DNA of 64,000 nt from Octopus vulgaris (lineage: Eukaryota), in NCBI GenBank assembly GCA_951406725.2, contig OX597832.1, positions 26,536,001 to 26,600,000 on the forward strand, read 5' to 3'. The stretch's first letter is position 1; every line of letters begins with the position of its first letter. A program made the position numbers and the translations under genes. Positions 15,541 to 40,735 of the stretch are shown here, piece by piece. Below the pieces are notes generated by a model. That model was not told where the DNA came from, searched no databases, and was given only the letters and a program-made list of their open reading frames with translations.

Positions 15541-15819
15541 CCCCCCTCTCCCCCTCCTCACCTATCCTTTCCCCCCGACCCCTACTTCTTCAGTCCTTCA
15601 TCCTTTCACCCCTACTCCCCTTCCCTTCTTCCCTCTTTCTCCCTCCCTCCTTCCCTCTTCCCCTTCCCTCTCTTTCCTCACTCCCCTTCCTTCTCCCCTT
15701 CCTTCTCCCCCCTCCTCCCCTTCCTTCTCCCCCTCATCTCTCTCCCCCATCCTCTCCCCCTCCCCCTCTTCTCCTCACTACACCACACAACTTTACACAT
15801 CACATCATATATGATGTGC

Positions 15820-16160
15820 CATACTAATACATACACCAACTAATACATACTAATACGTACTAATACATACTAATACATACTAATACATACACCAACCCTA
15901 TACATACACACGTCCAGACCCCTCATACGCACTTATACTCTCTCATACACACACACACACACACTTATACATACTAATACGTACTAATACATACTAATAC
16001 ATACTAATACATACACCAACCCCATACATACGCACGTCCAGACCAATCCTACGCACTAATACTCTCTCATACACACACACACACACACACACCCTTATAC
16101 ATACTAATACATACACCAACCCTATACATACACACGTCCAGACCCCTCCTACGCACTATT
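15820..16160 (+). repeat. Composite tandem repeat in PLE 3' region (TACTAATACA units in ~100-120 bp higher-order repeats)
   Basis: Three copies of ...atacaccaaccc(t/c)atacatac(a/g)cacgtccagacc.... Confidence 0.8.
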
Positions 16161-17799: not shown

Positions 17800-19184
17800 T
17801 AATAAATAATCTTAATCTCAGATTTATAGAAATGAGGAAATATGTTTGATGTTCTTTGGGTTTCACTCACTGGAATTCATCATCATCATCATTTAACATA
17901 TATGTTCCTATGACTGCATCAGTGAGATGGAATTTGTGGTGGATTCTTTACACCAGATCCCCTCGCTAGCTCTAACACATTCCTGTTTCAAACCAAGCCA
18001 ATTAAATATTTCCTCAAAGTGAAACATGTTTTTCCATGGAAGACTGAAAACAAACCATGTTAATTGTACGACAATGATCATTCACAACCCTCCTGTGATG
18101 TCACAGGGGTGCACAAAAATACACCCACACACACAACCGGCTGCTTTCAGTTCCTGTCAACCAAATCCATTCACAAGACATTATTTGACCTTGGGTTATA
18201 AAACACACCTTCCCAAGGTGTAGTGCAGTGTAACTGAACCTGTGACTCCATAGTTGGGAAGCAAACTTCTTAACCACACAGCCATGCTTGGAAAACAAAA
18301 ACATTTCATAGAGTACCATTGGAGTAAGCAGAGTTAATGAACTCAATGGCCATAGTAAGATTTGAACCTGTGATCATGTGGTTAGTAATTTTAACACCTT
18401 TAACCTCATTACCATTGTTATTTTCTTGTAATCAGACCCACCACAACTTAATTCTTCTTTCATTATAAGTTTAACTTCAGTTAACAGTTGAACGAAACTT
18501 CTACAGAGATAAACAGCAGTAATTAAATGCTCGTTAACCTCAAACTTGTTAGACATTAACAGCAGCTCCAATTATACATGTAGTTGCCATCATCACCATC
18601 ACATTAGATTACAAACAATCCCCACTGCAGTATACACCACTACGATATACTATACTGTACTGCAATTCACCATCACTACACTATGTTTCGGAGGTGCATG
18701 GCTTGGTGGTTAGAGCATTGGGATCACAAGCATGAGGTTGTGAGTTCAATTTCAAGACCAGACTGTGTGTTGTTTTCTTGAGCAAGATATTTTATTTCCC
18801 TCATCTGTAGAAATGAGTTGTGACATCACAGGTGCCAAGCTGTATCGGCCCCTTTGCCTTTCCCTTGGATAACATCAGTGTCATGGAGAGGAGAGGCCGG
18901 TATGCATGGGCAACTGCTGGTCTTCCACAAACAACCTTGCCCAGACTTGTACCTTGGAGGGGAACTTTGGTCATTCATGGCCAAAAGGGGTCTTTACACA
19001 TTACACTACGTTACACAGCAACACACCACATATTATTTAAAAGGTAGCAGATATTGTCTGATGACGAAAAACAGTCACCACATAATTCACACTTGAATCT
19101 GCCAGAACATATCGAGAACGGACACGTTCTCGTTTGGACTGTCACTGTTCTGCATCCACCTCAGGAATTACAACCAAAATTCAT

Positions 19185-19278
19185 TTTATTAAATCTCTCA
19201 AAATGAAACCAATTTGTGTATTTTCGCTTTAAGAAAAAACAGTCAAGACAAATTTGAATCAATTCATTTTATTTTATT
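19185..19278 (-). terminator. Candidate polyadenylation signals of the metallothionein gene
   Basis: AATAAA on minus strand at 19273-19278, 19268-19273 and 19185-19190, about 90-190 nt past the stop codon. Confidence 0.55.
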
Positions 19279-19370
19279 AATATAATTAATTGATCAATCA
19301 AGTAAAGAAACACATGAAAGCAATGAATGAAGAACTACAAAGAACATAGTCAAAGTGTTTTGTGGTTTCT

Positions 19371-19429
19371 CTACTTGCAGCAACTCTTCTCTGAGCCATG
19401 CTTGCAGCCGGAGTCACATTTGCAATTGC
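19371..19429 (-). CDS. MT: Metallothionein exon 3 (terminal): (G)NCKCDSGCKHGSEKSCCK*
   Basis: Acceptor ctaattctcgtttcag; phase 1 matches exon 2; CxC/CC pattern; TAG at 19371-19373. Confidence 0.9.
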
Positions 19430-21040
19430 CTGAAACGAGAATTAGAAACTTAGCATTAGGAAGGGCATCAAGCTGTAGAAACAACGCCAGACTAGACATA
19501 GGGCTGCGTCAGCAAGGAAGGCAGGTGTTAAAAATGATATTGATAAACTGAAGGTTACTAAATAGAACTTGGAGAATTTAAGAGAGAAGAGATTGAAAGT
19601 GCTATAGATCAACAAAGATCAATTAAATTTATGAAGAAACAAAAAAAAAAAAAATCCTGACATTGCCCCCTCTTTACTCTTTTACTTGTTTCAGTCATTT
19701 GACTGTGGCCATGCTGGAGCACCACCTTTAATCGAGCAACTCGACCCCGGGACTTATTCTTTTGTTTCTTTTGCCGAACTGCTAAGTAACGGGGACATCA
19801 ACACACCAGCATCGGTTGTCAAGCAATGCTAAGGGGACAAACACACATACATATATATACATATATATACATATATACGACAGGCTTTTTTCAGTTTCTG
19901 TCTACCAAATCCACTCACAAGGCTTTGGTCGGCCCAAGGCTATAGTAGAAGACACTTGCCCAGGTGCCACGCAGTGGGACTGAACCCGGAACCATGTGGT
20001 TGGTAAACAAGCTACTTACCACACAGCCACTCCTGCGCCCTGTTTTTTTCTTTTCCCAAAACATTGTCTAGAACTAAGCTGTCTTTAAGGCAGTAAGGTG
20101 TGAGCTCTGGCTTGTGCATTAGTTTTAATTACAGTACACCTGGAGGTTTTCTCAATCTCCTCTCTTTGAGATTAGGGAATTTAGGTAGATTCAGACAAGA
20201 ACGTTTCTGATTTTACCAAAAACTGAAGGAGACCAAACTTTACAAAAGAAACATGCCATACTTTCCCGGTTTCAATTCTATGTATCACCCTTCACAAGTC
20301 AGTAAAATATATTACAGGGGTCAATATAAATAATTAATTGCTTCATCGCTAGAAGGTGGCGCCCCAACATGATTGCATTCCGAATTTAGTGTATGTTTGA
20401 GGGGAGGGGGAAGAGAAAGGTATATTCTTTTAAACACGTGGACTTCAATATCCTTTTATTCTTTTATTTGTTTCAGTCATTTGATTGCAGCCATGCTGGA
20501 GCACCACCTTTTAGTTGAAGAAATCAACCCCAGGAATTAACAAAGCATAAAAGCCCACCATTCATAATAATTTTCATAAACAGGAAGAGGGCTGAAAACT
20601 CAGAAAACAAAATGTTTTGACTTGGTTCTATTGTTTTATTAATATACGTATTTGCATTCACCACATCCAATTTCTTTATTATCCACAAGGGCCCAAACAT
20701 AGAGGGGGACAATACAGCCTGATTGGGGTCAGACACACAATGATTATATGACTTTTAAAATTTTACAAAATATAATGAAATCGAATGAGATACAACAAGG
20801 ACGAAATACAAACATGAAATGAAGCAGAGAGATGGGTTACGCTCCGACCCCACGAGCCCCATTCTCCTACTGGAACCTTTGTATTCAGACTTATGACATG
20901 TTCACGAGGAATCTTTCATTCCCAGCACCCTCGCAACATGCAACCATCTTTCTTTGAACATTTTTCTTTGACAGGCATCTTCTTTCCAGCCTCACCTTCC
21001 TTTTAAGGTGGAAGATAAAATATCTCACCACATCCCCCCT

Positions 21041-21426
21041 GGATGGAAGCACTCCGTCGGTTACGACGACGAGGGTTCCGGTTGATCCGAATCAACGGAA
21101 CAACCTGCTCGTGAAATTAACGTGTAAGTGGCTGAGCACTCCACAGACACGTGTACCCTTAACGTAGTTCTTGGGGATATTCAGCGTGACACAGAGAGTG
21201 ACAAGGCCGGCCCTTTGAAATACAGGTACAACAGAAACAGGAAGTAAGAGTGAGAGAAAGTTGTGGCGAAAGAGTACAGCAGGGATCACCACCATCCCCT
21301 GCCAGAGCCTCGTGGAGCTTTAGGTGTTTTCGCTCAATAAACACTCACAACGCCTGGTCTGGGAATCGAAACCGCGATCCTACGACCGCGAGTCCGCTGC
21401 CCTAACCACTGGGCCATTGCGCCTCC
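21041..21426 (-). mobile_element. SINE family C (tRNA-derived head) with TSD, in MT intron 2
   Basis: Head GGAGGCGCAATGGCCCAGTGGTTAGG...GGTTTCGATTCCC; TSD ac(c/t)acatcccccct at 21027-21040 and 21427-21440; another copy at 63713-64000. Confidence 0.8.
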
Positions 21427-21515
21427 ACTACATCCCCCCTAAACGCCCATTGAAATAAACGAACCATTATGTGGAAATCAAAGACAACCTGTTAGAGAGA
21501 GAAAGTGTGACTCAC

Positions 21516-21635
21516 CCTCTGAGCACTGGCACTTGGGTACCTTACAGTCCTTGCATTTACATTCGTCACCACATTTACATGCTGTGTTATCACACTTTCC
21601 AGTTTTACAGGATGAACTGCAGCCACATTTTCCAC
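21516..21635 (-). CDS. MT: Metallothionein exon 2: (G)GKCGCSSSCKTGKCDNTACKCGDECKCKDCKVPKCQCSE(G)
   Basis: Acceptor tttatttcgtttcag, donor gtgagt, 120 nt, phase 1-1, 11 Cys; resembles the molluscan MT motif CKCGDDCKC..CKV.C.C. Confidence 0.93.
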
Positions 21636-21667
21636 CTGAAACGAAATAAAATAAAAATCATACTTTA

Positions 21668-22036
21668 CTAGCAGAATCGCCCGGCGTTGCTCGGGTTTGT
21701 AAGGGAAATAACAATATAAGCATTTTTAGAGAGTTATAGCCAAAAAATAGCAAAAAAAATGCATTAAAAATGGAAAAAAAATTATGTTAATTTTTTAAAA
21801 AAATTGTTGACTCATTGTAGACATTTTTAGAGAGTTACTTCCCTTATATAATAGCGAAAAAAATGATGTTAAATTATTTTTAAAATCGTAGACTCACGCT
21901 AATACCCAGAAAGGCTCGATATGAATCACGACTATAAGATACCTGCTTTTGGTTAAACTGCACCGCAAAATGTGGGAGTAGTTAGGAATCTAAATCGTAG
22001 GAGACAGACACACAACCTCTCTTTTATATATAAAGA
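21668..22036 (-). mobile_element. Non-autonomous Helitron (same family as 60877-61272)
   Basis: Minus strand A|TCTTTATATATAAAAG ... cccgagcaacgccgggcgattctgCTAG|T; inserted about 30 bp from the MT exon 2 acceptor. Confidence 0.85.
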
Positions 22037-22065
22037 TATCTTTAAGTCATACTTTGTTATAAATG

Positions 22066-22382
22066 TTTTTTTTTATGCGCCCTTTTCAAGCCTAGCCAGG
22101 CTCATGGGCCCGGTTTCCCGGTTTCTGTGGCGTATGTGTTCCCCCTTAGCTGGATGGGACGCCAGTCCATCGCAGCATTACTCAAGAAACAGGAAGAGAG
22201 AGAGTGAGAGAAAGTTGGGGGCGAAAGAGTACAACAGGGGTTGCCACCACCCCCCTGCTGGAACCTCATGGAGCTTTAGGTGTTTTTGCTCAATAAACAC
22301 ACACAACGCCCGGTCTGGGAATCGAAACCACGATCCTCCGACCGCGAGTCTGCTGCCCTAACCACTGGGTCATTGCGCCTCC
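22066..22382 (-). mobile_element. SINE with family C head but different 3' half; poly(A) tail and 8-bp TSD
   Basis: TSD TATAAATG at 22058-22065 and 22383-22390; body contains GCGATGGACTGGCGTCCCATCCAG (V-SINE-domain-like, recalled). Confidence 0.75.
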
Positions 22383-22844
22383 TATAAATGCATTAACGTA
22401 CATTATTAGCTCTGGTGGTGATCATCATCGTCATCATATTTTAATTGCTTTAATACTTTTATAATTCATTAAAGACAGAAAATCTTATGCTCAGGTTACA
22501 GCTGATGGTTTGTCGCAAAGGAAGTAGAAACCCACACATCAAAGTATAAAGTTACCACAAGACTAAAGACCTGGCCCCAATGCTTCTTCTAACAATGGAC
22601 TCTGCTAAAGGCACCCTAAGGTCCTATGGTGGATTTATGATTTCTCACACAGACATACTCTTTTACTTGTTTCAGTCATTTGACTGCGGCCATGCTGGAG
22701 CACCGCCTCTAGTCGAGCAAATCGACCCCGGGACTTATTCTTTGTAAGCCCAGTACTTATTCTATCGGTATCTTTTGCCAAACCGCTAAGTGACGGGGAC
22801 GTAAACACACCAGCATCGATTGTCAAGCAATGCTAGGGGGACAA

Positions 22845-22911
<67 letters not shown>

Positions 22912-24817
22912 TACGACAGGCTTCTTTCAGTTTCCGTCTACCAAATCCACTCACAAGGCATTGGTCGGCCCGGGGCTATAGCAGAAAACACTTGCCCAAG
23001 ATGCCACGCAGTGGGACTGAACCCGGAACTATGTGGTTGGTTAGCAAGCTACTTACCACACAGCCACTCCGGCGCCTATACAAAAACAGTTGTTTTTTTC
23101 TTTTGAGAGGTGGGAAGGAGTAAAGTTGATTCAATTGACACCCCTCCCCACAACCCTTCTATACTTGATTGGTACTTATCCCTTATCAACCACACCACAC
23201 AGACTCCGGAAGATGACTTAGGCAAACACACACAGACACACCCCCCAAGCATATATAGAGAGAGGCTATAAGTGGTTTTTATCTATCATGAAATAGATTA
23301 TTTGTTACTACAAAGAGTATACAATCACAAAATTAAGATGGGGTTGTAGGGATGTTTTCATATGAGAGAATGGGTGGCTGTGTGCGTGTTTGTGTGTGTA
23401 TGTGTAAGTTAGTGGTGGAGGGGAGTGATATGGATAGCATTGGTCGCAGTTGTAATGGTGGTGGTGTGCGGAGCTGTACAAATATACTTAGTTTACATAC
23501 ATGCCTAAACAAATGTATGGTGTGTGAGAGAGAGAGAGAAAGAAACAGTCGGTATACTTTTCAAAAAAAAACAAAAAAAAACAGCAAATAAATTTTTCCA
23601 GAACAAAATGAAAAACATTTTTTTTGAAAAACAAACTCTCAACAAAGCATGTGACGACTTGCTAAAACTTTTGCTGTCAAAAAGTAAAAACCTAATTCCT
23701 ACTGCAGGTCATTGGTGTTTTGGTATGGGGATTGTATGGGTCTCCAGATTCCAACAAATAAATAAATAGAAAAAAAAATTAACAGTTAAGTTCATATTAA
23801 AAAATTTAATACATAGAGTATTTTAAAAGTCTTAAATCTATTATTGGTGTAGAACAGTAAAATTCTTTGGAAATTAAAATAAACTCAGGGTCGTTATTCA
23901 CTTGCAAAATAATAGCTAATTTAATGTTGACATATATTCCATGCATGGAATATTTAAAGTCTAAAAATAAAAACTTTTACAAAATATTGTGAGAAAAAAA
24001 AACTATCAGTTACTAATTTTTTTATTTTTGTTTTCTGGTTTGAAATGTGTCAAGTTGCCAACAGGTTTAGGACTTTTTCTGTCCTTTATTTGCAAATCAA
24101 GAGAACTTCATTCTTCACCTTCCACTAAACAGTGAAGGATTTACTTAGTAAACTGACATGATTAACACAGTGGTGTAGGAAAACAGAAAACCCCACCTAA
24201 AGGCAGTGCTCCAGCATGGCCACAGTCAAATGAAACAAGTATAAAAATAAATGTCGACCTATTCATATTTAATGTGTGGAGTGATTAAAAAGATAACTAC
24301 AAATAAAAACATGGTGGGAAAATAAGATGAAAGAAAAATGCCCTATTAGTAATTTTACAGGCAATTATGAGAGAAACATTTTTCAGGATGTTTCAGTGTT
24401 ATTCTGATCTCATCAGCAAAAAATATATAATCTTCACTGTATCTTTTGAAGTAATGATGAATGACTCACTAAATGAATGCACCAGAATGTAGGTCTGCTG
24501 ATATAGAGAAACAGGAAGAACAACCTACCCAGTACTGTTACGGGTCGTTTGAAAATAAATATATTTATGACGTTAATGGCCACCAAAAATTAGAAACCAA
24601 CCCACCCAATATTGTTCATGATCTACATCCTAATAAAACATCCTAGTTCAGTCTATGAAAGTGAATGGTTAAAGCCGTATGTGCTCAACAGCTGTTTCGT
24701 GGGTACGTAAATTAATTTGGAAGTGATGTTTACCCAAAACATCTGTAGAAAAAAATGGTAACCCGAAAAACCATTGTCCACCAGTATTTACTGCATTGTA
24801 ATAACATTGGAATTTAA

Positions 24818-25037
24818 CCCTTTCGTTACTGCATTTATTTTGAGATGCTCTGTGTTTCTTTCAATTACTTTAAATATAACAAAGAATTTAGTAAAATAAC
24901 TTAGTTATCATTCAGCTAGTGTTAGGAACATGAATTGTGACTAAGGTTTGGTGGAAGATTTTTATTCAAAACTTATGAAAATAAGACATTTGTACACAGA
25001 ACCAGAGCCGGTTTCAGCCGGGTTGGTAACAAAAGGG
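24818..25037. mobile_element. piggyBac-type MITE
   Basis: TTAA|CCCTTTCGTTAC ... GTAACAAAAGGG|TTAA. Confidence 0.8.
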
Positions 25038-28000
25038 TTAATGGTACATTACCAAGTTCTCAATTATCATGAGTGTATTTTTCTGAAGTGGATACATAAA
25101 TTCTTGCTATATAGTAGATATGATTAAAACCTATTTCGAAATATTTCATTCAAAAACCGTCTCGTCTTGTGAGAACAAACATCTTGACAGCAATCTCATT
25201 TTGATACAAACTTCAACAAATTTTCAAGTATTTACAATTTTTTCTTATGTTGAACTTGGGAATTATTTGAATAAAAATTGTCCTTTTTTTTTTTTGTTTG
25301 ATCTTGTTCCTGATAACATTATCAGTCAAGTGACATTTAAATTTTATTCCTATATTTATTTTGGAGGTTTATATCAATATTTTTACACATACACATGTAC
25401 GATAATATGGTTAAAAAATTTGTTTCCCCGATCACATGGTCATGTGTTCAATCCCACTCTGTAACACTTTGGACTAGTGTCTTCAGCCTCTGACCAAAAT
25501 CTGAAGTGAAATTTGATAGATGTATCATAGACTGAAGCCTGTAGTACCTTGTACTATTTGAATTTGATTAAGTTATTATCACTTTACTCTTACTTGTTTC
25601 AGTCATTTGACTGCGGCCATGCTGGAGCACCGCCTTTAGTCGAAGAAATCAACCCCAGGATTTATTCTTTGTAAGCCTAGTACTTATTCTATTGGTCTCT
25701 TTTGCCAAACTGCTAAGTTACAGGAACGTAAACACACCAGCATCGGTTGTCAAGTGATGTTGGGGGGACAAACACAGATACACAAACATATACACACACA
25801 TACATATATATATATATATATGACGACAGGCTTCTTTCAGTTTCCGTCTACCAAATCCACTCACAAGGCTTTGGTCGGCCCGAGGCCACAATAGAAGAGA
25901 CTTGCTCAAGGTGCCATGCAGTTGGACTGAACCTGAAACCATGTGATTGGTAAGCAAGCTACTGACCACACAACCGCTCCTGCGCCTGTTTATACTAAGG
26001 ACACTGTTTTTATACAGATCAATAAAATAAGTATCAGACAAACTCCTGGGGTCCACATGAAGACCCTCAAAAATAGTGGCATAATATGGCCTCAGCCCAT
26101 GATTGAAACCAATTAAAAAAAGTATGTTTTATGCATGCATGTGAGTGTGTGATCCTGTCCCATCTATCAAAGGGGGTCTCTTTTACTTTGAAGGTTAGCA
26201 AGTTATAAGCTAAAACTATCAGTGCTGGTGTCATGATAAATGCACCCAGTACACTCTGTCAAGTGGTTGATCTTTGGAAGGGCATCCAGCAATAGAAACC
26301 ATGCGAATACAAAGATATTAAGCAAGACGTGATCCTCCAATTTATTGAATCCTGGACTATGGACATGCTAGGATACAGCCTTAAGGTTTAATCAATCGTA
26401 TTTACTGTATTAATTTCTATCAAATGGGGCTATGCTACCTCTTAATATAAAGTGGGTATAATTTTAAAATCCCAGTTTATACATATTAACTGTATGTCTA
26501 ATTGTACGTGTGTGTGTGTATAAAAACATTCTCGCCACAGAGGGCTCTTGGTCTTGTAGGAAACAAGACAATCCCTCTAGTGCTGGTGCCATAATAAAAT
26601 GCATCCAACTGCAGCAACCATGCCAAAAGTGGAATATGATCCCCAGGCTGGTAGTAGACTCAATTAAGAAGCAACTTGAACTGTTAATGATCCATCCAAC
26701 CCATACCAGCATAGAAAGTAGACAAAATAATGATGATGATGATAAATGATGTTATTTGCTTGGGAGTTGAATGAGTTTGCAAGTTTTCTACAAATGAATA
26801 CAGAAAACAAATTTAATACAACTAGAAGTTCAATACTAAAATACTATATATAGAGATTAATGAATAACAATTGGGGGTAGTTACGTAGACATACAACTGC
26901 CGCAATTTCATTCAATTTTCATAAACTGTCCTATTGTAAACCACTTGAAGTCAAAACTTTTTGATTTTCCTTTGTTACTGGTTACATGAAGCAGGTGTTT
27001 TGGAATCTGCTATAGAAATATTACTGAACAAACAAGTTTTTTCAGTTCTTTGTTTCTGCTGTGAAGTGTACAGTTGGACAAAGGAAGAATAAAAATTCCC
27101 AGAAAGAAAGAAAGAAAAAAACCCAATCCTAAAATCTTTGAATGAACACAAATGCTTGATAAAAATATTTTTCTAATTTTGGTTTTCTAATTTTGTATTC
27201 ATGGCGTTTCTTCGCCGCTTCGGTCGTCCGGCCGGTTTGGCGTCATGGTGTCGGGATGAAAAACCGCCTTAAAAGACGGCGAGCTGGCAGAAACGTTAGC
27301 ACGCCGGGCGAAATGCTTAGCGGTATTTCATCTGCCGCTACGTTCTGAGTTCAAATTCTGCCAAGGTCAACTTCGCCTTTCATCCTTTCGGGATCAATAA
27401 ATTAAGTACCAGTTACGCACTGGAGTCGATGTAATTGACTTAATCTCTTTGTCTGTCCCCTCTGTGGGTAGTAAAGAAATAGGTATTTTGTCTGCTGTTA
27501 CGTTCTGAGTTCAAATTCCGCCAAGGTCAACTTCGCCTTTCATCCTTTTGGGGTCGATAAATTAAGTACCAGTTTTGCACTGGGGTCGATCTATTCGACT
27601 TAATCCCTTTGTCTGTCCTTGTTTGACCCCTCTATGTTTAGCCCCTTGTGGGCAATAAAGAAATAGGAATTTTGTATTTAAGGTGGCAGAAATCATTACA
27701 ACACAAAGGAAACTTCTATGTGGGAGATCAACTCGCTAAAAGTAGCAGTCACTCTCCCTCGCATCCTTAGTGAAATTGGAATTATAAAAGAAGAATGCTG
27801 TTCTATAAAACACCAAGGTTATATTGGATGATGTCGATCTAGATACTGAAAAAGATACACACACAATGAGCTTTTCAGTTTCTGTCTTCCAAATCCACTC
27901 AGAAGATTTTGGGGTCAGCCAGGAGAGATAGTACAAGACACTTGCTCAAGGTGCTGCACAGAGGGATTGAACCTGAAGCTACATGGTTGGGAAGTATCTT

Positions 28001-29813
28001 CTCTGAAATACATAAACGCCTTGCAATATTTATATGAAGGCGGCAAGCTGGCAAATTGCTTTAGCCGCATTTCGTCTGTCTTTAAAATCCAGAGTTCAAA
28101 TTCAGCTGAGGTCAACTTTGCGTTTTGTCATTTCAATGTCAATAAAGTACCAGCTGAATACTGGGGTTGATGTAATCCACTCGCCCCCCCACCCTTCCCT
28201 GAACTTACAGGCCTTGTGCCAAAATTTGAAATCAATATTCATAGCTATCATTCTTAAGTTCAAAATGCAACCAATATCCTTCACATGGCCTTGAAGGGAA
28301 ATGCTATAAAAATAAGTTTACTATTTATCTGGGTGAACACCTGGCTTGTAGCCAATGGCAAGGATCAATATGTTCTGGTTAATTTTGTGCACGAAACAGT
28401 ATTATTAAAATAACTATTTTGTGGCTTTGAATTTCATCCAGTCACCATGGCCTTATATCTTTATGAGATCAATAAGATAGGTAATCAAGTTGATTTCATT
28501 GATTCTGTTTGTTCCAAGGAAATTTCTGATTCGGCTATTTTTACACCCAAAATAAGTCCTGCTTTGGTCTTCCACATGGAAGAACTCTTTCCTCAACAAC
28601 TGTGGTTCCGAGCCAAAATCAGACAACAATATTTCACAATTTGACAAAAAAATAGAACATTTTCAGATTTCAGAAAAATTCAAAAATAATTTAATTAGCT
28701 TTTACATTGATATTAACGATTTTACATAATTAAAATAAGCATAATTGTTTTATATGCTTATATCTATTTTTTAATGAGTCACCTTGTTAGGCACAGCTGT
28801 GTGGTAAGCAGTTGATTTTACAGTCCACACGGTTTTGGGGTTGACACAGAGTGACACCTTGGGCAAGTCTTTCTACTATATATAAATGGTTCCCAGCCTG
28901 TAGCCTGCAAAGGTAGTACTGGGGGTCCGCGAACATGTTAGCTGACAGACCTTTCTATACCCTGGGGGTCTGTGGGAGAACTCCTTTAAATAAAAGGAAC
29001 CCTTGGTAATGAAAACGTTGGGAAGCACTGTACTATAACCTTGGCCTGGCCAAAACCTTTAAGTTCATATTGTATACGGAAACTGAAAGAAGCCTGTCAT
29101 ACATGTATACACATATATATATATATGCGTGTGTCCCCTCTACATTACCGCTTGATAACCAGTGTTGGTTCGTTCACGTCCCCATAACATAACAGTTTGA
29201 CAAAGGAGACAGAATAAGTACCTCGAGTTAGAAAATAAATACTAGGGTAGACTTGTTTGACTAGAACCCTTCATGGTGGGGCCCTAGCAGGACACATTTT
29301 TTAGTGGTAAAATATTAAAGTTTGAGAATTCTAAATCGTTTTATAGTGCCTCATTCCATGCATTATGTGTTACCCGACAGCTTGTGGAGAATTATATATA
29401 AAAAAATAATCGTTATTGATATTATTATTTTTTAACCTATCTAAAAACAGAGTCATTTAAATAAGCAGTTTTGTAGAAACCGAAGCAGTAATCGTTTATA
29501 GGTCAACTCTGAAGGGCATGAATAAAAGGGGGCTTGGAATGAAAATTAGCCAACTCCATAACAAACAGAAATAAAATGGATTTTTTATTCATAAGGAGAA
29601 AGATAAGATAAATAATTGCGTAAGGAGTGTAAGATATTATAATGATGAGGTCAATGACCTTTAGAGATATATATAGAGAGAGAGAACGGGGGGGGGGGCA
29701 AGTCGGAAAGAGAAAGAATGACATAACGAGAGTGGGGGGGGGGTTATGAAGTGAATCGCGAATTTCTAAGAAACAGATATAAGGAGGTGATACGAGATAA
29801 AAGGAGATAAGAG

Positions 29814-30642
29814 GGCGATCTTTCGTTTGTAGTAGCACGTTTCCGTCGATGATTTCCGTAAAAAACTATTATTTTTTTTACATATGGGCTTGCGGGAACA
29901 TTTGAAGTAATGAGAGCGAAAGAGACTAAGAGAAAGCGATTTTATGACGAGGGAATTTCTTTTGAAGTTACCGAAGCATTGATGTACATGTGTGTGTGTG
30001 CGCGCGCGCGCGCGTGTGTTTGATGGGGTGTGGGAGACAGACAGTATGTTGTGTAAGTGAAGTGCTTCTGTTAGTGTGTGTGAAGAGACAGAGAGAGTAA
30101 TGTGTGAAAGAGAGAGATAACTGATTTTTTACTCGGTGTATGTGTATATGTATCTATGTATGTGTGTGTGTATGTATCTATGTATGTGTGTGTATATGTA
30201 TGTATGCATGTATGTGTGTGTGTGTATGTATGTATGGCCGATTCAGTGTACACTGAATCGGCCATACATACATACATACATACACACACATACATAGATA
30301 CATACACACACACATACATAGATACATATACACATACACCGAGTAAAAAAATTCAGTTATCTCTCTCTTTCACACATTACTCTCTCTGTCTCTTCACACA
30401 CACTAACAGAAGCACTTCACTTACACAACATACTGTCTGTCTCCCACACCCCATCAAACACACACACATGTACATCAATGCTTCGGTAACTTCAAAAGAA
30501 ATTCCCTCGTCATAAAATCGCTTCCTCTTAGTCTCTTTCGCTCTCATTACTTCAAATGTTCCCGCAAGCCCATATGTAAAAAAATAAAAGTTTTTTACGG
30601 AAATCAACGACGGAAACGTGCTACTACAAACGAAAGATCGCC
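29814..30642. repeat. ~830-bp spacerless palindrome (fold-back) in MT intron 1
   Basis: Centre ...ggccgattcagtgt|acactgaatcggcc... at 30249/30250; arms match to ggcgatctttcgtttgtagtagcacg / cgtgctactacaaacgaaagatcgcc, differing mainly in microsatellite length. Confidence 0.95.
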
Positions 30643-32622
30643 GATCGATTTGAATTTAAGGTCATAAAAACGAGGTCACCCAAGAGTTTATTTTATCGAC
30701 CACAATTAAAATAGAAAAACCGGAATTCAACTCTAAACGTTCAGAAACTAAACACACAGTGAGATGCAAATGAATATATCGCTTTCAAATTTTGGCACAA
30801 GGCCAGAAAGTTCGGAGGACCGGGTAAGTCGATTACATCTACCCCAGTACTCAACTGGTACTTATTTTACTAAGGCTGAAAGGCAAAGTCGGCCTCGGCG
30901 GAATTTGAACTCAGAACGTTAGACAAAATGCCTATTTCTTTACTACCCACAAGGAGCTAAACACAGAGAGGACAAACAAGGACAAAGGGATTAAGTCGAT
31001 TACAGTGCGAAACTGGTACTTCATTTATCGACCCCGAGAAAGGGTTGAAAGGCAAAGTCGACCTCGGCGGAATTTGAACACAGAACGTTAAGATAGACAA
31101 AATACCGCAAAGCATTTTGTGATATATATATATATAAATATATTTGCCGCCAAATTGAAATCCCAGGGATTGCGCGGTGAAACAACTGTTTGCGTGGCTT
31201 TTAAACTAAACAAAAGATGAGAGAAAAATCACACCAAACGACTCGAGCCATGTTTCCGTTTCATTCTTTTAAGATATCGAAATAAAACAGGATTTTTTTT
31301 CTCTCTCACATAAATAATGTCTCCTTGCATAAAACTGTCTCTGCGTACAACTCATTCATTGTCATTCAATCATATGCGACATCAATTACTTGTAATTATT
31401 ATTTTTTTTTTTTTATCTAAATGAAAAAATCTAAAGCCTTCCCTCCCCGTTACGTCTTGGTTCTAAGCCAAAATTATGATTTTATTTTTAGTCATCCAGC
31501 TTCTATTCCTTTTATAAAAGGATTTTTTGGCTGTCAATTCTTATACTGACCATATCAGTATAAAAGGCCAAGGTGGATGAATTAACTTTAAGTCGAGATT
31601 TGAACCAACAGTGTAAAAATCAAGCTCAAAATCTTCAATTCCATTTGGGGAATTAAAAGCTGTTTTAGGAAATCGAACTTGAAAATCCGAGTATCGCCAC
31701 AGAAGACACCAAAATATATTTGATACAATATATATTTCTTTACTACCCACAAGGGGCTAAACACAGAGGGGACAAACAAGGACAGACAAAGAGATTAAAG
31801 TCGATTACATCGACCCCCAGTGCGAAACTGGTACTTTATTTAATCGACCCCGAAAGAACGAAAGGCAAAGTCGATCTCGGCGGAATTTGAACTCAGAACA
31901 TAACAGCAGACGAAATACCTATTTCTTTACTACCCACAAGGGGCTAAATACAGAGGGGACAAACAAGGACAGACAAAGGGATTAAGTCGAATAGATCGAC
32001 CCCAGTGCGAAACTGGTACTTTATTTAACGACCCCGAAAGGACGAAAAGCAAAGTCGACCTCGGCGGAATTTGAACTCAGAACGTAACGGCAGACGAAAT
32101 ATATTTGATACCATATATTTATTTAACCTGTGAACACCTGAAACTTGCAGCGCTTCTTTTAGTGATGCAAAAATAAGAATATAAAATGTTGAACCTTTGT
32201 TCTTGAAGCAAAAGTCCGTTTGCCTGTCATGGACAAACGCTCCTCTCTATTCTCAGCCATCACATATTTAAATCAAACAGAATTCTTTAGAATCATTACA
32301 ATTGATATTATTAGCTCGGGGAGAAAGGTTAACTTTAGCCACTTCATTATTTATATCTAGCTATATCCCAAACTTTAACCTTAGGAACCAAATTTTTGAA
32401 ATTTATTCTGCTGACACCAGATATGAAAAGACATTCTATAGTGATCAAAAAACTTCGTATCTGCTTTAAATGTCCCAATCCAAGCATATTGACACCAACA
32501 TCTAAGATGCTTCCTGATCTTAGCCATCAACAATCTAGATCAAGTCTTCGGAAAGACGTCGCTGAAATCACCTCAGATGATGTGATTCAAAACAAATTTC
32601 TTATATAAAGTCTGTCACCCCA

Positions 32623-32796
32623 CCGACTTTGTTTCCTCATAACTTTAAGAAAAAATAAATTCTTTTAAAAATAGAATTTTCTATATATGCGTTTCAGATT
32701 GTGTAGATTCCAATATAATTGGTACCTACATCATCTGCAACGCTTTTTGTAGAAAATTTCATTAAAAATATCCCGTTATGAGGAAACAAAGTCGGT
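32623..32796. mobile_element. Short MITE-like element with CCGACTTTGTTTCCTCATAAC inverted repeats
   Basis: Inverted repeat at about 32623-32643 / 32775-32795; related pieces at 33160-33295 and 38594-38850. Confidence 0.6.
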
Positions 32797-32799
32797 TAG

Positions 32800-32835
<36 letters not shown>

Positions 32836-33841
32836 CGTATAAAGCAGTATTTCGTCTGCCGCTACGTTCTGAGTTCAAATTCCGCCGAGGTCGACTTTGC
32901 CTTTCATCCTTTCGGGGTCGATAAATTAAGTACCAGTTACGCACTGGGGTCGATGTAATCGACTTAATCCGTTTGTCTGTCCTTGATTGTCCCCTCTGTG
33001 TTTAGCCCCTTGTGGGTAGTAAAGACATATATATATGTGTGTGTGTATATAAACGGAATTCAATGTAAAAGATGGTTGGGCGCGCGCACTCACACACAAA
33101 TACTATATTACAAAATGAAGCTTAATATTTTGTAGATATATGTGAGGCATGTCACTATGTGTGCACGCCCATTTTTTTCTCCCATGAAATTTCGATGTAA
33201 CTGGAATCTAGACTCTCTGGTGTTTGGAGAAAATTCCATTAAAAAGCATCCGTTTTTCTCAAAGTTATGAGGAAACAAAGTCGAAGGGTGCATACTTGTG
33301 CAGATATATTTATATATACATACATTTATACACACACACACACGCAGGCCAGGGATGTGTGTGAAAGCGCGTATAAGAGTTGTAGTGTAGCTTATTTAGC
33401 CTGAGGTCAGCTGTGATCCAACAACCGATGAAGCAAAGATGTTAAGGCTCAAAAAGCCCGATCTTTTCCCCTTCTTTCAGGATTGTAACAGATTATTTAG
33501 ACTTCAATTTATTTTCTTAAGGCAGAGAGATCAAGCTGATGTTTTCAGCAGACACTAAAGTTTGGTGTCAGAAACTAAGTTGACAAACTGACAGAAAAAT
33601 GTTTGTTTGTTTTTTGGCGAAACTCTGTGGGTTAGTAGTATTTGCAAACATTATAATTAAATAAATAATTGCTTTAATGAATGTGGCAGTGGTTACTGAC
33701 AGACTCCGAAAATATCTCTCGAAAAAATAACCTATCAACAGAAAATATAAACAAAACTTTAAAGTTCAAATATATAAAGTTCAAAGGGTTAAATCAAAGT
33801 GCCAACGAGGGGGTAAAATGTGAGTTTATAAATACACACAC

Positions 33842-34160
33842 AGCTTCTGAAGCGCTCGTGTCCCTCGAAACATTGCGCACGGCCCATTGCCTAATCGCCC
33901 TAAGCATGCTCAATATTTCTGGAGCTGACTTTCCAAAGTTCAACGCAAATTTACCAAATGTTTCACGTTGGCTTTCTGTTCCAAATTCCTGCCCATGACA
34001 AAAATCGCAGACTACAGCATACACGTAATATCAAAATTTTACAATTTGCCAAGTAAACACAGCGATGTCACTCGGCACATGGCCTTATAAAGGGCCACTT
34101 CTAGCTCTCAGTGCGCACGCGAACGTGCTGCCATGTATTGGCGCGCTGCGGAAACCTTTT
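33842..34160 (-). mobile_element. Mariner transposase N-terminal remnant
   Basis: GTESQRETFGKFALNFGKSAPEILSMLR resembles the mariner HTH start (EQR..IKFC..LGKSA.E...ML). Confidence 0.6.
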
Positions 34161-34185
34161 AATACCACTTCGTAATATACGCACA

Positions 34186-34352
34186 AAGGCAGCTCAAAAG
34201 GTCGCCGTTTTGACACCGTGGTCGAAAATCCGGAACGAATTGCAGAAGGTTCTCGATTCTCTTATGGAAAACGACTTCCAGGCCGGATTCTAAAAGCGCC
34301 AGGAACGCGGGGACCAGGGCAGTGCTGCGCAAGGTGACTATTTCGAAGATAA
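34186..34352 (+). mobile_element. Mariner transposase C-terminal remnant
   Basis: With frameshifts: ...RRFDTVV..RNELQKVLDSLMENDFQAGF*KRQERGDQGSAAQGDYFED, matching the mariner C-terminus (W.RC...QGDYFE). Confidence 0.7.
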
Positions 34353-34799
34353 TGTTTATACACACACACACGTAGTTTGGCGCACAAACTTTAGTACAAT
34401 CTTAGTTTAGGTTACCAATTGACTGATCAACGAGAATGCTCAACGGTCCAATAGGTAGTCGGTGCTACAACTTTGTACATGTTTGAATTAAGCGAATGGA
34501 AAGAATAGATCTCAAATACTACGTAGTAGTTTTGTTTCCGTTCACGAAAACATTTTATGCTTGTAAGCCATATAAGATTGGCTGTATAAAGTTAAGAAAT
34601 CTAGATCAACCCTTCAGACCCCCAGGGGATAGACATCTAGGGTAGAACTGTCCTTCCCTTCACACTGAAGTTTGATTTTAATGGAGATTTTGGCTGCTAT
34701 TTCTAACAAGCCGAACGACCACGTTGGCTCGCGTTTCCTGGACTCCGTGTTTATTGTCCAATGTCCAATGTTATGGAAACTAACGAATTATATACATAC

Positions 34800-34848
<49 letters not shown>

Positions 34849-35449
34849 CACACACATACATGTACGCACAATAGAAGCCGCTTACTGTGATCACTTGAAG
34901 CCTTTTCGATAATAACTGGTTGACAACATTAAGTAAATATAGTATAAGACCTAATTTGATAGCAATAACCGGTTGATAACAATAAGCAAATAGGGATTCA
35001 CTAATTTCTATAGCAATAACCAAAACAAATAAAGCGCTTAGGGTTCACCAGATTTCGATAACAATAACTAAAAGCAAAATGAGTCCGGGACCCACAGATT
35101 TGGGTGACAATAACTGGTATAAATGACCTTAACCGAAGTGTTTATATATGAAATATTGAAACGCATATCTTTTTTCTTGATCGCCATTTATAGGATCTTT
35201 CTCTCTCTGCGGATTCAACGAAGTTGCTCTTTGATAAGGGCCGTGGCGGGTCCCTTACAGCACCCCTTTCTTCAGAGAGGATTTGCTTGGGGGTGGGTGG
35301 GGGAGGCTGTAGGGTTCTTGTCATAAACAAAAAGCAGTAAAATGATCTGGAACTATTGTTTGACGACGGATCGGATCGGTTTGTAGGTACAACACAGAAT
35401 GGAAATGAAAGAGATATAATGATGGCTACTAAAGGACAGGTGATATATT

Positions 35450-36198
35450 GAAAAGAAAGAAAGAAAGATAGATAGACAGAGAAATAGATAGACAGATAGA
35501 AAAAGAGATAGATAGATAGACAGACATATATAGAAAAATAGATAGACAGATAGATAAACAGACAGAGAAATAGATAAATATAGACAGAAGGATAGATAGA
35601 CAGAAATATATAGACAGACAGAAATAGATAGACAGAGAAATAGATAGGTAGAGAAATAGATAGGTAGATAGAGAAATAAAGATAGATAGATAGACAGACA
35701 GATATATAGACAATCAGAGAAATAGATCGATAAATAGAGAGATATAGACGGACATGAACAGGTAGATATAAACAGTCTCCCACATTGGCTCATAGTCGAG
35801 CAAACATGTAAATAGACAGACAATAAGATATAGACGGACATGAACAGGTAAGACAAATAGCTAGACATAGACAGATAGATAGACATTGATAAATAGACAC
35901 AGACTCCCTCGATGGATCATACTCGAACCAACATGTAAATAGTTAGACAGACAGATAGACAGCAGTGAGACAGATACATAAATAAACAGACATAGACAGA
36001 CATGAACAGGTAAGACAAATAACTAGACATAGACAGATAGACAGACTTCTTCATTAGATCATACTCGAACCAACATGTAAATAGTTAGACAACAATGAAA
36101 CAGACAGACAGAGATAAACAGATATAGATGGAGATGAACAGGTAAGACAAATAACTAGACATAGACAGAAAGATAGACAGACAGACAGACAGACAAAC

Positions 36199-36283
<85 letters not shown>

Positions 36284-36480
36284 TATAGCTAGATAGACAG
36301 ATAGATAGATAGGTAGATCCTGATAAATAGACATTGATAAATAGGCATAGACTCCCTCATTGAGTTAGACAGCAGTGAGACAGACAGACATAGATAAACA
36401 GACGGATTTAGACGGAGATGAACAGGTAAGACAAAAAGCTAGACATAGACAGAAAGAAAGAAAGAAAGCTAGATAGATGG
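35450..36480. repeat. (GATA/GACA)n-rich block with ~120-bp higher-order repeat
   Basis: Recurring ga(c/g)atgaacaggtaagacaaa...ctagacatagacag units; lies at the start of MT intron 1. Confidence 0.85.
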
Positions 36481-36525
36481 ATATAAAAAGGGATGAAAGA
36501 CCGTTTTTTTCCCCAAAAAACTTAC

Positions 36526-36556
36526 CCTCCAAGGTACAGCAACAACTGTCTGGCAT
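36526..36556 (-). CDS. MT: Metallothionein exon 1 (coding part): MPDSCCCTLE(G)
   Basis: atcATG start, 31 nt, phase-1 GTAAGT donor; like the short first exon of molluscan MTs (MSDPCNC..TG); phase fits exon 2. Confidence 0.85.
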
Positions 36557-36666
36557 GATTGATGCTTTAGAAGTTTAATATATTCAATGGAAGGACAACA
36601 AAGTCTACTTTGTTGTTGTTGCTCTGGTGAAGTGTGTCTATGCTGTTGTAGTAACGGAAAAACACG

Positions 36667-36673
36667 TATTATA
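36667..36673 (-). promoter_or_regulatory. Candidate TATA box of MT gene
   Basis: TATAATA on minus strand about 110 bp upstream of the ATG. Confidence 0.55.
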
Positions 36674-37006
36674 GACGGCTGCCACTGATATATATCCTAT
36701 ATGTATATAGAACTATATATGTGTGTGTATATGGTGTGTATATGCGTGTGTATGTAAGTTTTAAATACAAGTGGTCATGTAGACATGTGTGTGTGTCTAT
36801 GGAAGCTGTTTAATGTCTGACTCTGTTAACCACTTTTGACAGAGGAATAGACGGAGTGGGAGGAAGGGGAGGCTTGCGTTGAACGTAGGCGCATACGAAG
36901 GGGGGAGATGAAGAGGATAGGTAAGAGGGGGGGAAAGTAAGAGACGCGCATACGTTAACGCGTAGAAGGACATAAACGCATAGAGGAAAACGACATGTAG
37001 GCATTT

Positions 37007-37317
37007 TGCACGCATGCACGCAACGCACGCATTTGCAGTGAGACACACACACTCACACACATATATATACATATATATGTGTATGTATAATAGATGCACT
37101 CACGCGAAAGTGCACATGCGCAAATGTAGAGACGCACACACACACATAGGCGTACACATACAGATGCACGCACGTACTTATACACATATGCTCATAGACG
37201 CGTAGCTATACACACACATACGCACACTTGTACACATACGCACATAAGATACATAAGCATACATACATGTAGATATACACACATACACACGGAAATGACC
37301 GAAGAGTAACGTGTGCA
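37007..37317. promoter_or_regulatory. Cluster of five metal-response-element cores (TGCRCNC)
   Basis: TGCACGC 37007-37013, 37015-37021, 37165-37171; TGCACTC 37095-37101; TGCACAC (minus) 37311-37317. All upstream of MT exon 1, but in CA/TG-rich sequence. Confidence 0.5.
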
Positions 37318-37702
37318 AAGTCAATAATCTTAGGGTGGGTCGGTCACAAGTGACGCACGCACACACACACGCACGCATACACACACATACACACACACAC
37401 ACTACATACATATACGTATAAAGTCATACACGTACATACATTCATATGTGCTGTCACACATGCATACACATAAATGCAACCTGCTGCCCCCTCCCTCCAC
37501 GTCACTCCCTTATTGGATCATACTCGAGCCACCGACAGAAGCCTGCTAGAAATAGCAGCCAAATCTTTCTCTGAACTCGCAGTCTTCATTTTTCTGAATT
37601 AAAATAAATATAAAATAAATGTAATTTATATTTCGTTTTTGGGGATCCCGTTTTTGGATTTGGTTTGCAAGATTCTTTATATGAGTTCGTGTGTTGAAGC
37701 AT

Positions 37703-37936
37703 ATTCTGTTGTGTCTGGGGAGAGTCATTTTCTTTTTGTGCCTTATAATTTAACACACTAAGCGGTAAAATTTCCACTTTTTTCTTATTTTTAAGAGTCA
37801 AAACTATTGAAAATGTTGCAAGAAGCAACGAGAATTTTAGGACAATAAAAATAAGAAAAAAGTGGAAATTTTACCGGTGAGTGTGTTAAATTATAAGGCA
37901 CCAAAAGAGAATGACTCTCCCCAGACACAACAAAAT
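37703..37936. repeat. ~90-bp-arm inverted repeat with ~50-bp spacer
   Basis: 37703-37793 vs 37846-37936 (tgttgtgtctggggagagtcatt... / ...aatgactctccccagacacaaca). Confidence 0.9.
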
Positions 37937-38874
37937 GTAATTTATTTTATAAAATAATGGTAATTATGGATATATTATTTGTTTGTCGTTGGTAGAATGA
38001 GTTTGGTTTACACTCGCCAATATAGTTTTTGCTGATCTGTATCAGAGACTTATTTGCGGGGAAGAAAGTGGAGGAAAACCAAATTTCGAAACCACATTAG
38101 TTTCTCACCCATTACGTCATTTTGTTCTTATGACCAGGAAAGCTGCCCATTATTATTATTATATCTGGAACCGATTTTCCAAGGTTACGCTCTTGAATAA
38201 ACTGCTAAAGCTCGAGGCGAAAGAGGGAGAGGTCCTCTTTCGATGTCTGTTTCCCGTCTTTAATAATTAAACAGCAATAAAATACTGAATTCTTCATCAA
38301 TATCTTTATGATCGTGATGTATTTTGGCACCATCCAAAAGATTAAATGGGCATTTAATGAAGGCATATTTCAGAGCAAGTTCATGAAAGCTGTTGAAGTC
38401 TCATTTCTTGTATCACTCTGTCGAGCAAAGAAAGCATTCCTCTCCTCGATTTAATGCCGTATGGGCAATTCAAGATCTTGTGGTCCTTCACCAAACATTT
38501 CTTTCTTCTTCAGCAGTGTTAAAGACATAAAATCAGAAAATTTCAAACTACATGGCGCAGCAAAAAGAGTGATTCTGGGCATACTTATAGAAATGTGCCC
38601 CCCCATCGACTTTGTTTCCTTATAACTTTCAGTAAAATAGATATTTTTCTAATAAAATTTTCTGCAAACACGTCTCAGGATGTGTAGATTACGTTTATAT
38701 CGGAATTTAGTGTGAAAAAAAAAATCTTTTTAAATTGGTGACCACGCGGACATAGAATCAAATATCACATTTTTAAAAATTCCATTTCATTTTGTAGATC
38801 TGTATGGGTGCGCCCTCCAACATTTTTCTTTCCTTTTCACATTAAATTCCGAAACTGATCGGGTGTTAGTTTAC

Positions 38875-39131
38875 GGGTAGTACTTAAGAACAGTGGTCCC
38901 AGTGCGCGCACTCGCGTACTCGCGCTAGCTAGTCGTGACTAGTCGATCCTACTTCCTAGCAAAGTAAATAAAACACAAAATAAATCATTTTTTTACACTA
39001 AATAATTTTTGTTAAACAAAGTAAATAACACACAAAAACACAAAGTAAAGATCGACTAGTCATGACTAGCTAGCGCGGATGCGCGAGTACGCGAGTGCGC
39101 ACACCGGGACCACTGTTCTTAACTAGTACCC
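38875..39131. mobile_element. MITE with ~75-bp GC-rich TIRs and apparent 2-bp AC TSD
   Basis: AC|GGGTAGTACTTAAGAACAGTGGTCCC ... GGGACCACTGTTCTTAACTAGTACCC|AC. Confidence 0.8.
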
Positions 39132-39356
39132 ACCTGTTGTCAAGTGATGATAGGAAATACGGTGACAGGTAATAAAGTCACAGGTTAAAAAAAGTCACAG
39201 TGATAAAGTCACTATTTTGGCTAGGAAAAAAAAGTCACAATTAATTTGTGGGACCCTGACAAAACCTCGCTAGGATAAAACCCTCGGACAAAACCCCTGT
39301 GACTTTTTTTACCTGGATTTGGACACACACACTCTCTCTCTCTCTCTCTACCTATC

Positions 39357-39395
<39 letters not shown>

Positions 39396-39761
39396 CTCTC
39401 TAACAATGGGCTTCCACTCAGTTTCGGATTACCAAATCCACTCATGAGGCTATAATAATTAGGAGCTTGCCCAAGGGGCTGCGCAATGGGACTGAACTTG
39501 AAACCACGCTGTTGCAAAGTGAGTCTCTTGTTACCCACACAGCCATTCCTTAATAAATTACTTTGAAATATTCTATTAATTTTTTTTTATAGGTACCAAA
39601 AATGTTTATGTTATCGATTTAAATTACAAAAGCTGTCTGACTGCCAAGGGCTTGTCCTTGACATATGGTGCCGTCAAATTACTCTAAATCGCAAACAATA
39701 GCTTTTATTTCTATACAGGTTTGTACAGAAGATCCAAAAGTGCCGCTCCATAAGAGTGTCG

Positions 39762-40735
39762 CCTGGGTGCGAATTTTTTTTTTTAATTCCCACGAGAGTT
39801 CCTGCTCCCAGTAACGAACTCATTTGCATACAGCCAATCAGAGCTCACCTTGAAAAAATCCACATGCTGTGTGCTACTGTTTCCAGATCAACACCAACAT
39901 TTTAAATTAGGAAATGTACAAAATCAGTCAAAAAATTAGGAAAGTACACTCATTTACATTTTCTCGTAAATTATGCAAATTGGCAACACTTATGGCATCA
40001 TTGGTGAGCAGCTCTCCATTCACTTTCATCATCATCATCATCATCGTTTAACGTCCACTTTCCATGCTAGCATGGGTTGGACGATTTGACTGAGGGCTGG
40101 TGAACCAGATGGCTGCACCAGGCTTCAATCTTGATCTGACAGAGTTTCTACAGCTGGATGCCCTTCCTAACACCAACCATTCCGAGAGTGTTGTGGGTGC
40201 TTTTACGTGCCACTGGCATGGGGCCAGTCAGGCAGTACTGGCAACGACCTCGCTCGAATCTTTTATATATGCCACTGGCACAGGTGCCAGTAAGGCGATG
40301 CTGGTAACGATCACGTTTGAATGGTATCTTTTACGTGCCACCAGCACGGAGGCCAGATAGCCACTCTGGCAACGATCATGCTCAGATGGTGCTCTTAACA
40401 CCCTACTAGCATGGGGCTCGAGTGCCAGTAAGGCGATGCTGGTAACGATCATGCTCAAATGGTGCCGTTTAAGTGCCACTGGCACTGAAGCCGGTTGGCT
40501 GCTCTGTCAATGATCACACTCATATGGTGCTCTTTGCTACCCGCTACACTAAATTTCACATTTGTCTCCCCTACTAACCCGTTTTGCTATAACACACATT
40601 TTCCACTGAACTCAACCAGAATATTTTCGTGACGAGGTGGACACTAGTTTGATAGATGAGCTCTGATTGGCTGTATGCAAATGAGTTCAATCCTGGGGTC
40701 TGGAACTCTCGTGGGAAAAAAATTTCACACCTGGG
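39762..40735. mobile_element. Non-autonomous DNA element with ~85-bp inverted repeats; family D LINE tail nested inside
   Basis: ttcccacgagagttcc...gaactcatttgcatacagccaatcagagctc (39762-39849) vs reverse complement at 40657-40735. Confidence 0.65.

What the first reader, a model, noticed from the sequence alone, without database searches (positions are those of the whole stretch)
19371..36556. Complete metallothionein gene spread over 17 kb and missed by the ORF track
Seen: three phase-compatible exons (31+120+59 nt) with canonical splice sites give MPDSCCCTLEGGKCGCSSSCKTGKCDNTACKCGDECKCKDCKVPKCQCSEGNCKCDSGCKHGSEKSCCK (69 aa, 19 Cys, no aromatic residues). Intron 1 is ~14.9 kb and intron 2 ~2.1 kb, both repeat-filled. 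Known: MT genes are usually compact and are often missed by annotation. Inference: a functional molluscan-type MT with an unusually long first intron for a stress-inducible gene.
Basis: partly seen in the sequence, partly recalled or inferred. Interest (0 to 1): 0.72.

Follow-up and report, generated by a model that had tools for sequence, protein, structure and literature searches.

The report
Known octopus metallothionein with long intron
This is the common octopus's already catalogued metallothionein, a small cysteine-rich protein that likely binds and detoxifies metals such as cadmium; its three exons are spliced together across a 15-kb repeat-rich intron, in a gene of ordinary length for an octopus.

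Summary
Contigs from public runs join both introns, and one 587-nt poly(A)-tailed contig carries all three exons without mismatch. It is not a missed gene. The protein is identical to O. vulgaris CAI9736660.1 (UniRef 'Metallothionein') and one residue from the published OvuMT1. No second copy was found in the genome. Intron 1 (14,890 nt) is six times the species' median intron. But the gene (17.2-17.6 kb) is shorter than the median O. vulgaris gene (20.3 kb), intron 1 is no richer in repeats than its flanks, and large molluscan MT genes are already described. 'Stress-inducible' is untested: promoter MRE cores do not exceed trinucleotide shuffles, and cephalopod MT induction is reported as inconsistent. 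What remains open is the C-terminal beta1 domain, which has 7 rather than 9 Cys plus a His; I found no biochemical test of it.

The parts
36557..36805 (-). 5' untranslated part of exon 1 (furthest contig end 36805; another ends at 36676; true start site not determined)
   Evidence: table 8 (X3 contig 36524-36805, X7 contig 36524-36676); TATATA at 36719 and TCAGT at 36688 suggest a start near 36686 (inference)
36526..36556 (-). Exon 1 coding part, 31 nt, residues 1-10, phase 1
   Evidence: joined to exon 2 in contigs
21636..36525 (-). Intron 1, 14,890 nt, GT-AG, at least 40% microsatellite and dispersed repeats
21516..21635 (-). Exon 2, 120 nt, residues 11-50 (most of the alpha domain, linker, start of beta1)
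19430..21515 (-). Intron 2, 2,086 nt, GT-AG
   Evidence: joint skipping 2086 nt in 4 of 4 runs
19371..19429 (-). Exon 3 coding part, 59 nt including TAG
19253..19370 (-). 3' UTR with two overlapping AATAAA (starts 19278, 19273) and poly(A) addition at about 19253-19256
   Evidence: poly(T) loose ends before 19253 in X3 and X7
37007..37317 (.). Five MRE-core matches (TGCRCNC) upstream of exon 1, in a CA/CG-rich simple-sequence tract; not above trinucleotide-shuffle expectation, role unproven

Best explanation
This is the transcribed and spliced Octopus vulgaris metallothionein gene MT1, found once in this genome, whose product likely buffers and detoxifies Cd/Zn/Cu in metal-thiolate clusters and whose first intron likely grew by ordinary repeat insertion. 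Shown: the three exons, both splice joints, the poly(A) site, identity with the catalogued protein. Inferred from the Nautilus homologue: the N-terminal alpha domain (residues 5-41, 12 Cys) would hold four divalent ions with a Cd preference; the C-terminal beta1 domain (46-68, 7 Cys + His61) would hold up to three, possibly only two. Inferred: the 14.9-kb intron is neutral filler in a 2.8-Gb repeat-rich genome and adds only minutes to transcript production (elongation rates recalled, not from a call), so it need not affect induction.
For: Spliced poly(A)-tailed contigs with 0 mismatches over all three exons. Product identical to P0002 = CAI9736660.1 / UniRef A0AA36BLK1 'Metallothionein'; 1 difference from OvuMT1 and 4 from ObiMT1. 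Alpha-domain Cys spacing fits the coleoid pattern with one spacer of 4 instead of 3. Nautilus MT binds Cd7 = 4(alpha)+3(beta1) (PMC9781358). Genome search gave exon 2 and exon 3 here plus one E=6.9 hit that is not Cys-rich. Median O. vulgaris intron 2,467 nt and gene 20,288 nt (PMC10700109 Table 3). Intron 1 repeat share 0.41 against 0.45 for the window. 5' introns are generally longer (PMC7222433).
Against: Metal binding of the octopus protein itself was not tested here, and I found no test in print. The canonical 9-Cys beta1 pattern is not met. Intron 1 is 6x the median and I had no first-intron length distribution, so its percentile is unknown; per intron this 3-exon gene is long. [quoted passage not shown] Reviews report inconsistent MT induction in cephalopods and octopus Cd on 2-3 kDa ligands. 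The runs are only guessed to be RNA.
Confidence: 0.9

Rival explanations
1. The long first intron is functional: it carries metal- or stress-responsive enhancers, partly brought by mobile elements, or deliberately slows induction.
For: Seven MRE cores in 32900-34200 and five in 38700-39200 exceed di-, tri- and tetranucleotide shuffles (0-16 of 1000 reach them). Intronic binding-site repeats were proposed for the Helix pomatia CdMT gene (PMC11101346 passage).
Against: Both clusters were picked after seeing the counts. Three of the seven intronic cores lie in a dispersed repeat with at least 39 other places in the genome (3353 candidates, 40 scored). Four of the five upstream cores sit in the arms of one inverted-repeat element. 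Repeat share equals the flanks. No cross-species intron comparison was possible.
Confidence: 0.07
2. The gene is a weakly inducible or constitutive housekeeping MT with a degraded beta1 domain, binding fewer than seven ions and playing a minor part in octopus Cd storage. This is compatible with the identity above and differs only in function.
For: beta1 has 7 of 9 Cys. No MRE core in the 249 nt upstream of the ATG, and the five further up match trinucleotide shuffles (514 of 1000). Spliced contigs occur in four studies (treatments unknown). MT induction is inconsistent in cephalopods. The large Biomphalaria MT gene is not Cd-inducible.
Against: The same five cores do exceed dinucleotide shuffles (13 of 1000). 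MT level is reported to track Cd in O. vulgaris (cited in PMC9781358; original not seen), and kit-measured MT rose in Cd-exposed Sepia larvae. The large Helix gene is Cd-inducible.
Confidence: 0.25
3. The exon chain is a chance assembly, or exon 2 splices to another first exon (for example from the RhoGAP gene upstream).
For: 33 mechanical first-exon candidates exist upstream; a same-strand RhoGAP gene ends about 21.3 kb upstream.
Against: All shown loose ends at the exon-2 acceptor are exon-1 letters; the reciprocal holds; the O. bimaculoides protein maps to the same three exons; the RhoGAP exon ends in its own stop.
Confidence: 0.01

Closest known systems
OvuMT1, Octopus vulgaris metallothionein (Calatayud et al., PMC7826182 Table S2); CAI9736660.1 / UniRef A0AA36BLK1
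   Same: Identical to CAI9736660.1 over 69 aa; 68 of 69 identical to the published OvuMT1
   Different: Residue 43 in the linker is Val here and in the laid contigs of X3 and X7, Gly in published OvuMT1. The passages seen give no gene structure (the words intron and exon do not occur in the main text)
ObiMT1, Octopus bimaculoides (KOF91040; UniRef A0A0L8HQM4)
   Same: 69 aa, all 19 Cys in place, maps onto the same three exons
   Different: Four substitutions (positions 29, 35, 43, 44); its intron lengths could not be seen
NpoMT1, Nautilus pompilius alpha/beta1 Cd-thionein (PMC9781358)
   Same: Two-domain alpha/beta1 layout, 12 Cys in the N-terminal domain
   Different: Nautilus has 21 Cys and a full 9-Cys beta1 and is shown to bind Cd7; octopus has 19 Cys, a 7-Cys beta1 with His, and is untested
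Large gastropod MT genes (Biomphalaria glabrata, >11 kb, five exons; Helix pomatia CdMT)
   Same: Small Cys-rich product spread over a long gene
   Different: The octopus gene is longer than the Biomphalaria one with only three exons; Helix is Cd-inducible with four MREs, Biomphalaria is not inducible; the Helix gene length was not in the passages seen

Membership tests
Metallothionein (general) | Under 100 aa, about 15-30% Cys in CC/CxC/CCC motifs | tested here: met
   69 aa, 19 Cys = 27.5%; definition from PMC9781358
Metallothionein (general) | Lack of aromatic residues (classical criterion; recalled, and touched on) | tested here: met
   No F, W or Y; one His
Metallothionein (general) | Binds d10 metals in thiolate clusters | not testable with these tools
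   Shown only for the Nautilus homologue; metal-free single-sequence model uninformative (pLDDT 55.7)
Metallothionein (general) | Match to a curated MT profile (Pfam) | tested here: inconclusive
   0 families at E<=1 for P0002 and for the named ObiMT1, so the library does not cover this lineage; not a test of membership
Metallothionein (general) | Typical three-exon, two-intron coding structure | tested here: met
   typical structure per PMC4101491
Cephalopod alpha/beta1 MT | N-terminal alpha domain with the coleoid Cys spacing | tested here: met
   Residues 5-41 match the published coleoid pattern with one spacer of 4 rather than 3; the strict pattern did not match; ObiMT1 has the same Cys positions
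Canonical molluscan beta1 domain | Nine Cys as CxC-CxC-C-CxC-CxC | tested here: not met
   Only the first five Cys fit, then a terminal CC (7 Cys). Published as 'somewhat modified in Octopus MTs' and still filed as beta1
Octopus MT1 (OvuMT1) | Sequence identity with the catalogued protein | tested here: met
   69/69 with CAI9736660.1, 68/69 with OvuMT1
MTF-1/MRE-inducible MT gene | Cluster of MREs in the proximal promoter above chance | tested here: inconclusive
   Five cores 200-510 nt above the furthest 5' end: 13 of 1000 dinucleotide shuffles but 514 of 1000 trinucleotide shuffles reach five
MTF-1/MRE-inducible MT gene | Transcript induced by Cd/Zn/Cu | not testable with these tools
   Only contigs were available; the literature is mixed

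The most novel reading that the evidence does not exclude
The octopus's only metallothionein has a shrunken, His-containing 7-Cys beta1 domain and no real MRE promoter. It would then be a largely constitutive, lower-capacity (for example Cd6, 4+2) chelator whose labile C-terminal half is clipped off, explaining both the erratic MT induction and the 2-3 kDa Cd ligand reported from octopus digestive gland. At 17.5 kb it would also be longer than the MT genes called largest in the papers seen.
Probability: 0.12. Interest if true: 0.4.

Novelty: already known. Interest (0 to 1): 0.12.

Why it matters
Little as a discovery: the protein is annotated and published. The verified exon map, junctions and poly(A) site give a junction-spanning qPCR assay for the one detected MT gene of a cadmium-accumulating food species, where MT has mostly been measured by indirect protein assays with conflicting results. 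The reduced beta1 domain is a simple, apparently undone biochemical test.

Tried and rejected
Run search: no RNA holder listed on record; the laid runs are guessed RNA or of unknown kind. X14 gave no cover over exon 1. A processed retrocopy as source of the spliced contigs was considered and rejected: no full-length match elsewhere in the genome (the first look scored only 5 candidates). Paralogues: the C11 hit (E=6.9) is not Cys-rich. Wider homologue searches returned only the octopus cluster plus one unrelated 734-aa protein, so no squid or cuttlefish alignment could be built. Pfam: no family. PDB by sequence: only a chance fibrinogen match at E=0.086. Single-sequence AlphaFold model pLDDT 55.7, pTM 0.30, so no fold search was run. 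No tRNA genes in the window. No long coding frame in either intron was recognised by eye among ORFs of 90 aa or more; these were not scanned against family libraries. PMC4326271 (part 2 of 6 read) gave no MT data. Earlier scan notes: none near this place, six word hits unrelated.
Full report
Observation. They give 69 residues with 19 Cys, 12 Lys, one His and no F/W/Y. The introns are 14,890 and 2,086 nt; ATG to stop spans 17,186 nt. A six-frame scan for Cys/Lys-rich stretches flagged only exon 2, and 33 mechanical first-exon candidates exist upstream of it, so the choice of exon 1 needed outside evidence.

Splicing. Contigs from four runs of four studies (kind guessed as RNA) were laid on 19050-21900. 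All 4 of 4 skip 2,086 nt at the intron-2 boundaries. In 3 of 4 the letters beyond exon 2 are exon 1 (no row shown for X13; the table was cut). X3 and X7 end in poly(A) at 19253, just downstream of two AATAAA. Laid on 36330-41100, X3 and X7 show exon-2 letters beyond the exon-1 donor, X14 does not cover exon 1, and X17, which looks genomic, runs through the donor without a joint. One 587-nt contig of X3 accounts for all three exons with no mismatch across the two calls. The 5' ends reach 36676 and 36805; contigs cannot fix a start, but TATATA at 36719 and TCAGT at 36688 point to about 36686 (inference).

Identity. The product is letter for letter P0002 = CAI9736660.1, 'Hypothetical predicted protein [Octopus vulgaris]' at NCBI and 'Metallothionein' at UniRef, recorded on a 71.8-Mb contig. 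It differs from published OvuMT1 at one linker residue (Val43 versus Gly; PMC7826182 Table S2) and from O. bimaculoides ObiMT1 at four; ObiMT1 maps onto the same three exons. So the gene is annotated and published; only an ORF track misses it. Pfam finds nothing for either octopus protein, which probably explains the 'hypothetical' label (inference). A search of the 2.80-Gb genome found exons 2 and 3 here and one E=6.9 hit that is not Cys-rich, 5 of 5 candidates scored: one copy as far as this search sees.

How it works. Cephalopod MTs are alpha/beta1 two-domain proteins (PMC7826182). The Nautilus protein binds Cd7, four ions in alpha and three in beta1, with a Cd preference set by alpha (PMC9781358). 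Here residues 5-41 hold 12 Cys and fit the coleoid alpha spacing with one spacer lengthened by a residue. Residues 46-68 hold only 7 Cys: the first five fit beta1, then a His-containing stretch and a terminal CC replace the last two CxC motifs. The authors noted this as 'somewhat modified in Octopus'. I infer a Cd/Zn-thiolate chelator with a four-ion alpha cluster and a two-to-three-ion beta1 cluster. Metal binding of the octopus protein was not tested here, and four paper searches showed no such test and no description of its gene structure; subscription papers are outside the library. A single-sequence structure model was uninformative.

Is the intron unusual? A published O. vulgaris annotation gives a median intron of 2,467 nt and a median gene of 20,288 nt with 8.42 exons per transcript (PMC10700109 Table 3). 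Intron 1 is six times the median intron, intron 2 is typical, and the gene is shorter than the median gene, though long for three exons. First introns tend to be the longest (PMC7222433). I had no first-intron distribution, so the percentile is unknown. Tandem and within-window dispersed repeats cover at least 41% of intron 1, 40% of intron 2 and 45% of the window: the intron looks like its surroundings. Long MT genes are known in molluscs: Biomphalaria glabrata over 11 kb and not Cd-inducible, Helix pomatia among the largest known and Cd-inducible. Length therefore does not predict inducibility. The octopus gene is longer than the Biomphalaria one, which is a curiosity.

Is it stress-inducible? 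Unknown. The window has 35 MRE cores. None lies in the 249 nt above the ATG. Five lie at 37007-37317 in a CA/CG-rich tract: 13 of 1000 dinucleotide shuffles reach five, but 514 of 1000 trinucleotide and 266 of 1000 tetranucleotide shuffles do (36806-37805). Two other clusters, chosen after the fact, beat the shuffles (7 cores in 32900-34200; 5 in 38700-39200). Three of the seven are in a genome-wide dispersed repeat and four of the five are in the arms of one inverted-repeat element; the remaining cores were not traced. Reviews call cephalopod MT induction inconsistent and doubt that MTF control applies (PMC5397501), and report octopus Cd on 2-3 kDa ligands (PMC4101491). Against that, MT is said to track Cd in O. 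vulgaris (cited; original not seen) and kit-measured MT rose in Cd-exposed Sepia larvae (PMC10466719).

What I saw of each paper: PMC9781358, part 1 of 5 plus passages; PMC7826182, passages plus four rows of Table S2 (its supplementary figures were not among the files held as text); PMC4326271, part 2 of 6; PMC7084494, PMC11101346, PMC5578137, PMC10700109, PMC5397501, PMC10466719, PMC4101491 and PMC7222433, passages only. Egg et al. 2009 and Raimundo et al. 2010 were seen only as cited. Supplements of the genome paper were not opened and may hold intron distributions.

Verdict. A real, spliced, correctly reconstructed gene, already known as Octopus MT1. The long intron is best read as ordinary octopus genome expansion. 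Interest is low; the one worthwhile follow-up is the metal stoichiometry and inducibility of an MT with a 7-Cys beta1 domain.

Noticed in passing
window 58132-59142 (-): Last coding exon of an ARHGAP29/45-like RhoGAP (matches residues 826-1142 of the O. bimaculoides protein P0005), with a Gln-rich C-terminal tract, about 21.3 kb upstream of MT exon 1 on the same strand. No other exon of it was matched in the window.
   Followed up: partly
window 13576-15827 (+): Retroelement with reverse transcriptase (E=2e-6) and a weak GIY-YIG match, consistent with a Penelope-like element (label recalled), coding region spread over two reading frames.
   Followed up: partly
window 38875-39131: About 257-nt element with long terminal inverted repeats (MITE-like), very high depth in the genomic-looking run X17; its arms carry four MRE-core matches about 2.1-2.3 kb upstream of the MT gene.
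   Followed up: partly
window 33843-34300: Dispersed repeat in intron 1 with many copies at about 75% identity, containing a TATAAA and three MRE cores.
   Followed up: partly
window 21538-21540 (-), codon 43: Val here, in CAI9736660.1 and in the X3 and X7 contigs, but Gly in published OvuMT1 and in ObiMT1: a linker polymorphism or a difference within the species complex.
   Followed up: no
window 36778-36786 (-): Two short upstream ATG frames (3 and 5 codons) lie in the longer 5' end seen in X3 but not in the shorter one of X7.
   Followed up: no
P0002, P0003: Octopus metallothioneins match no Pfam family at E<=1 and find no other MT among 50%-identity cluster representatives, so profile-based annotation does not name them.
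   Followed up: partly
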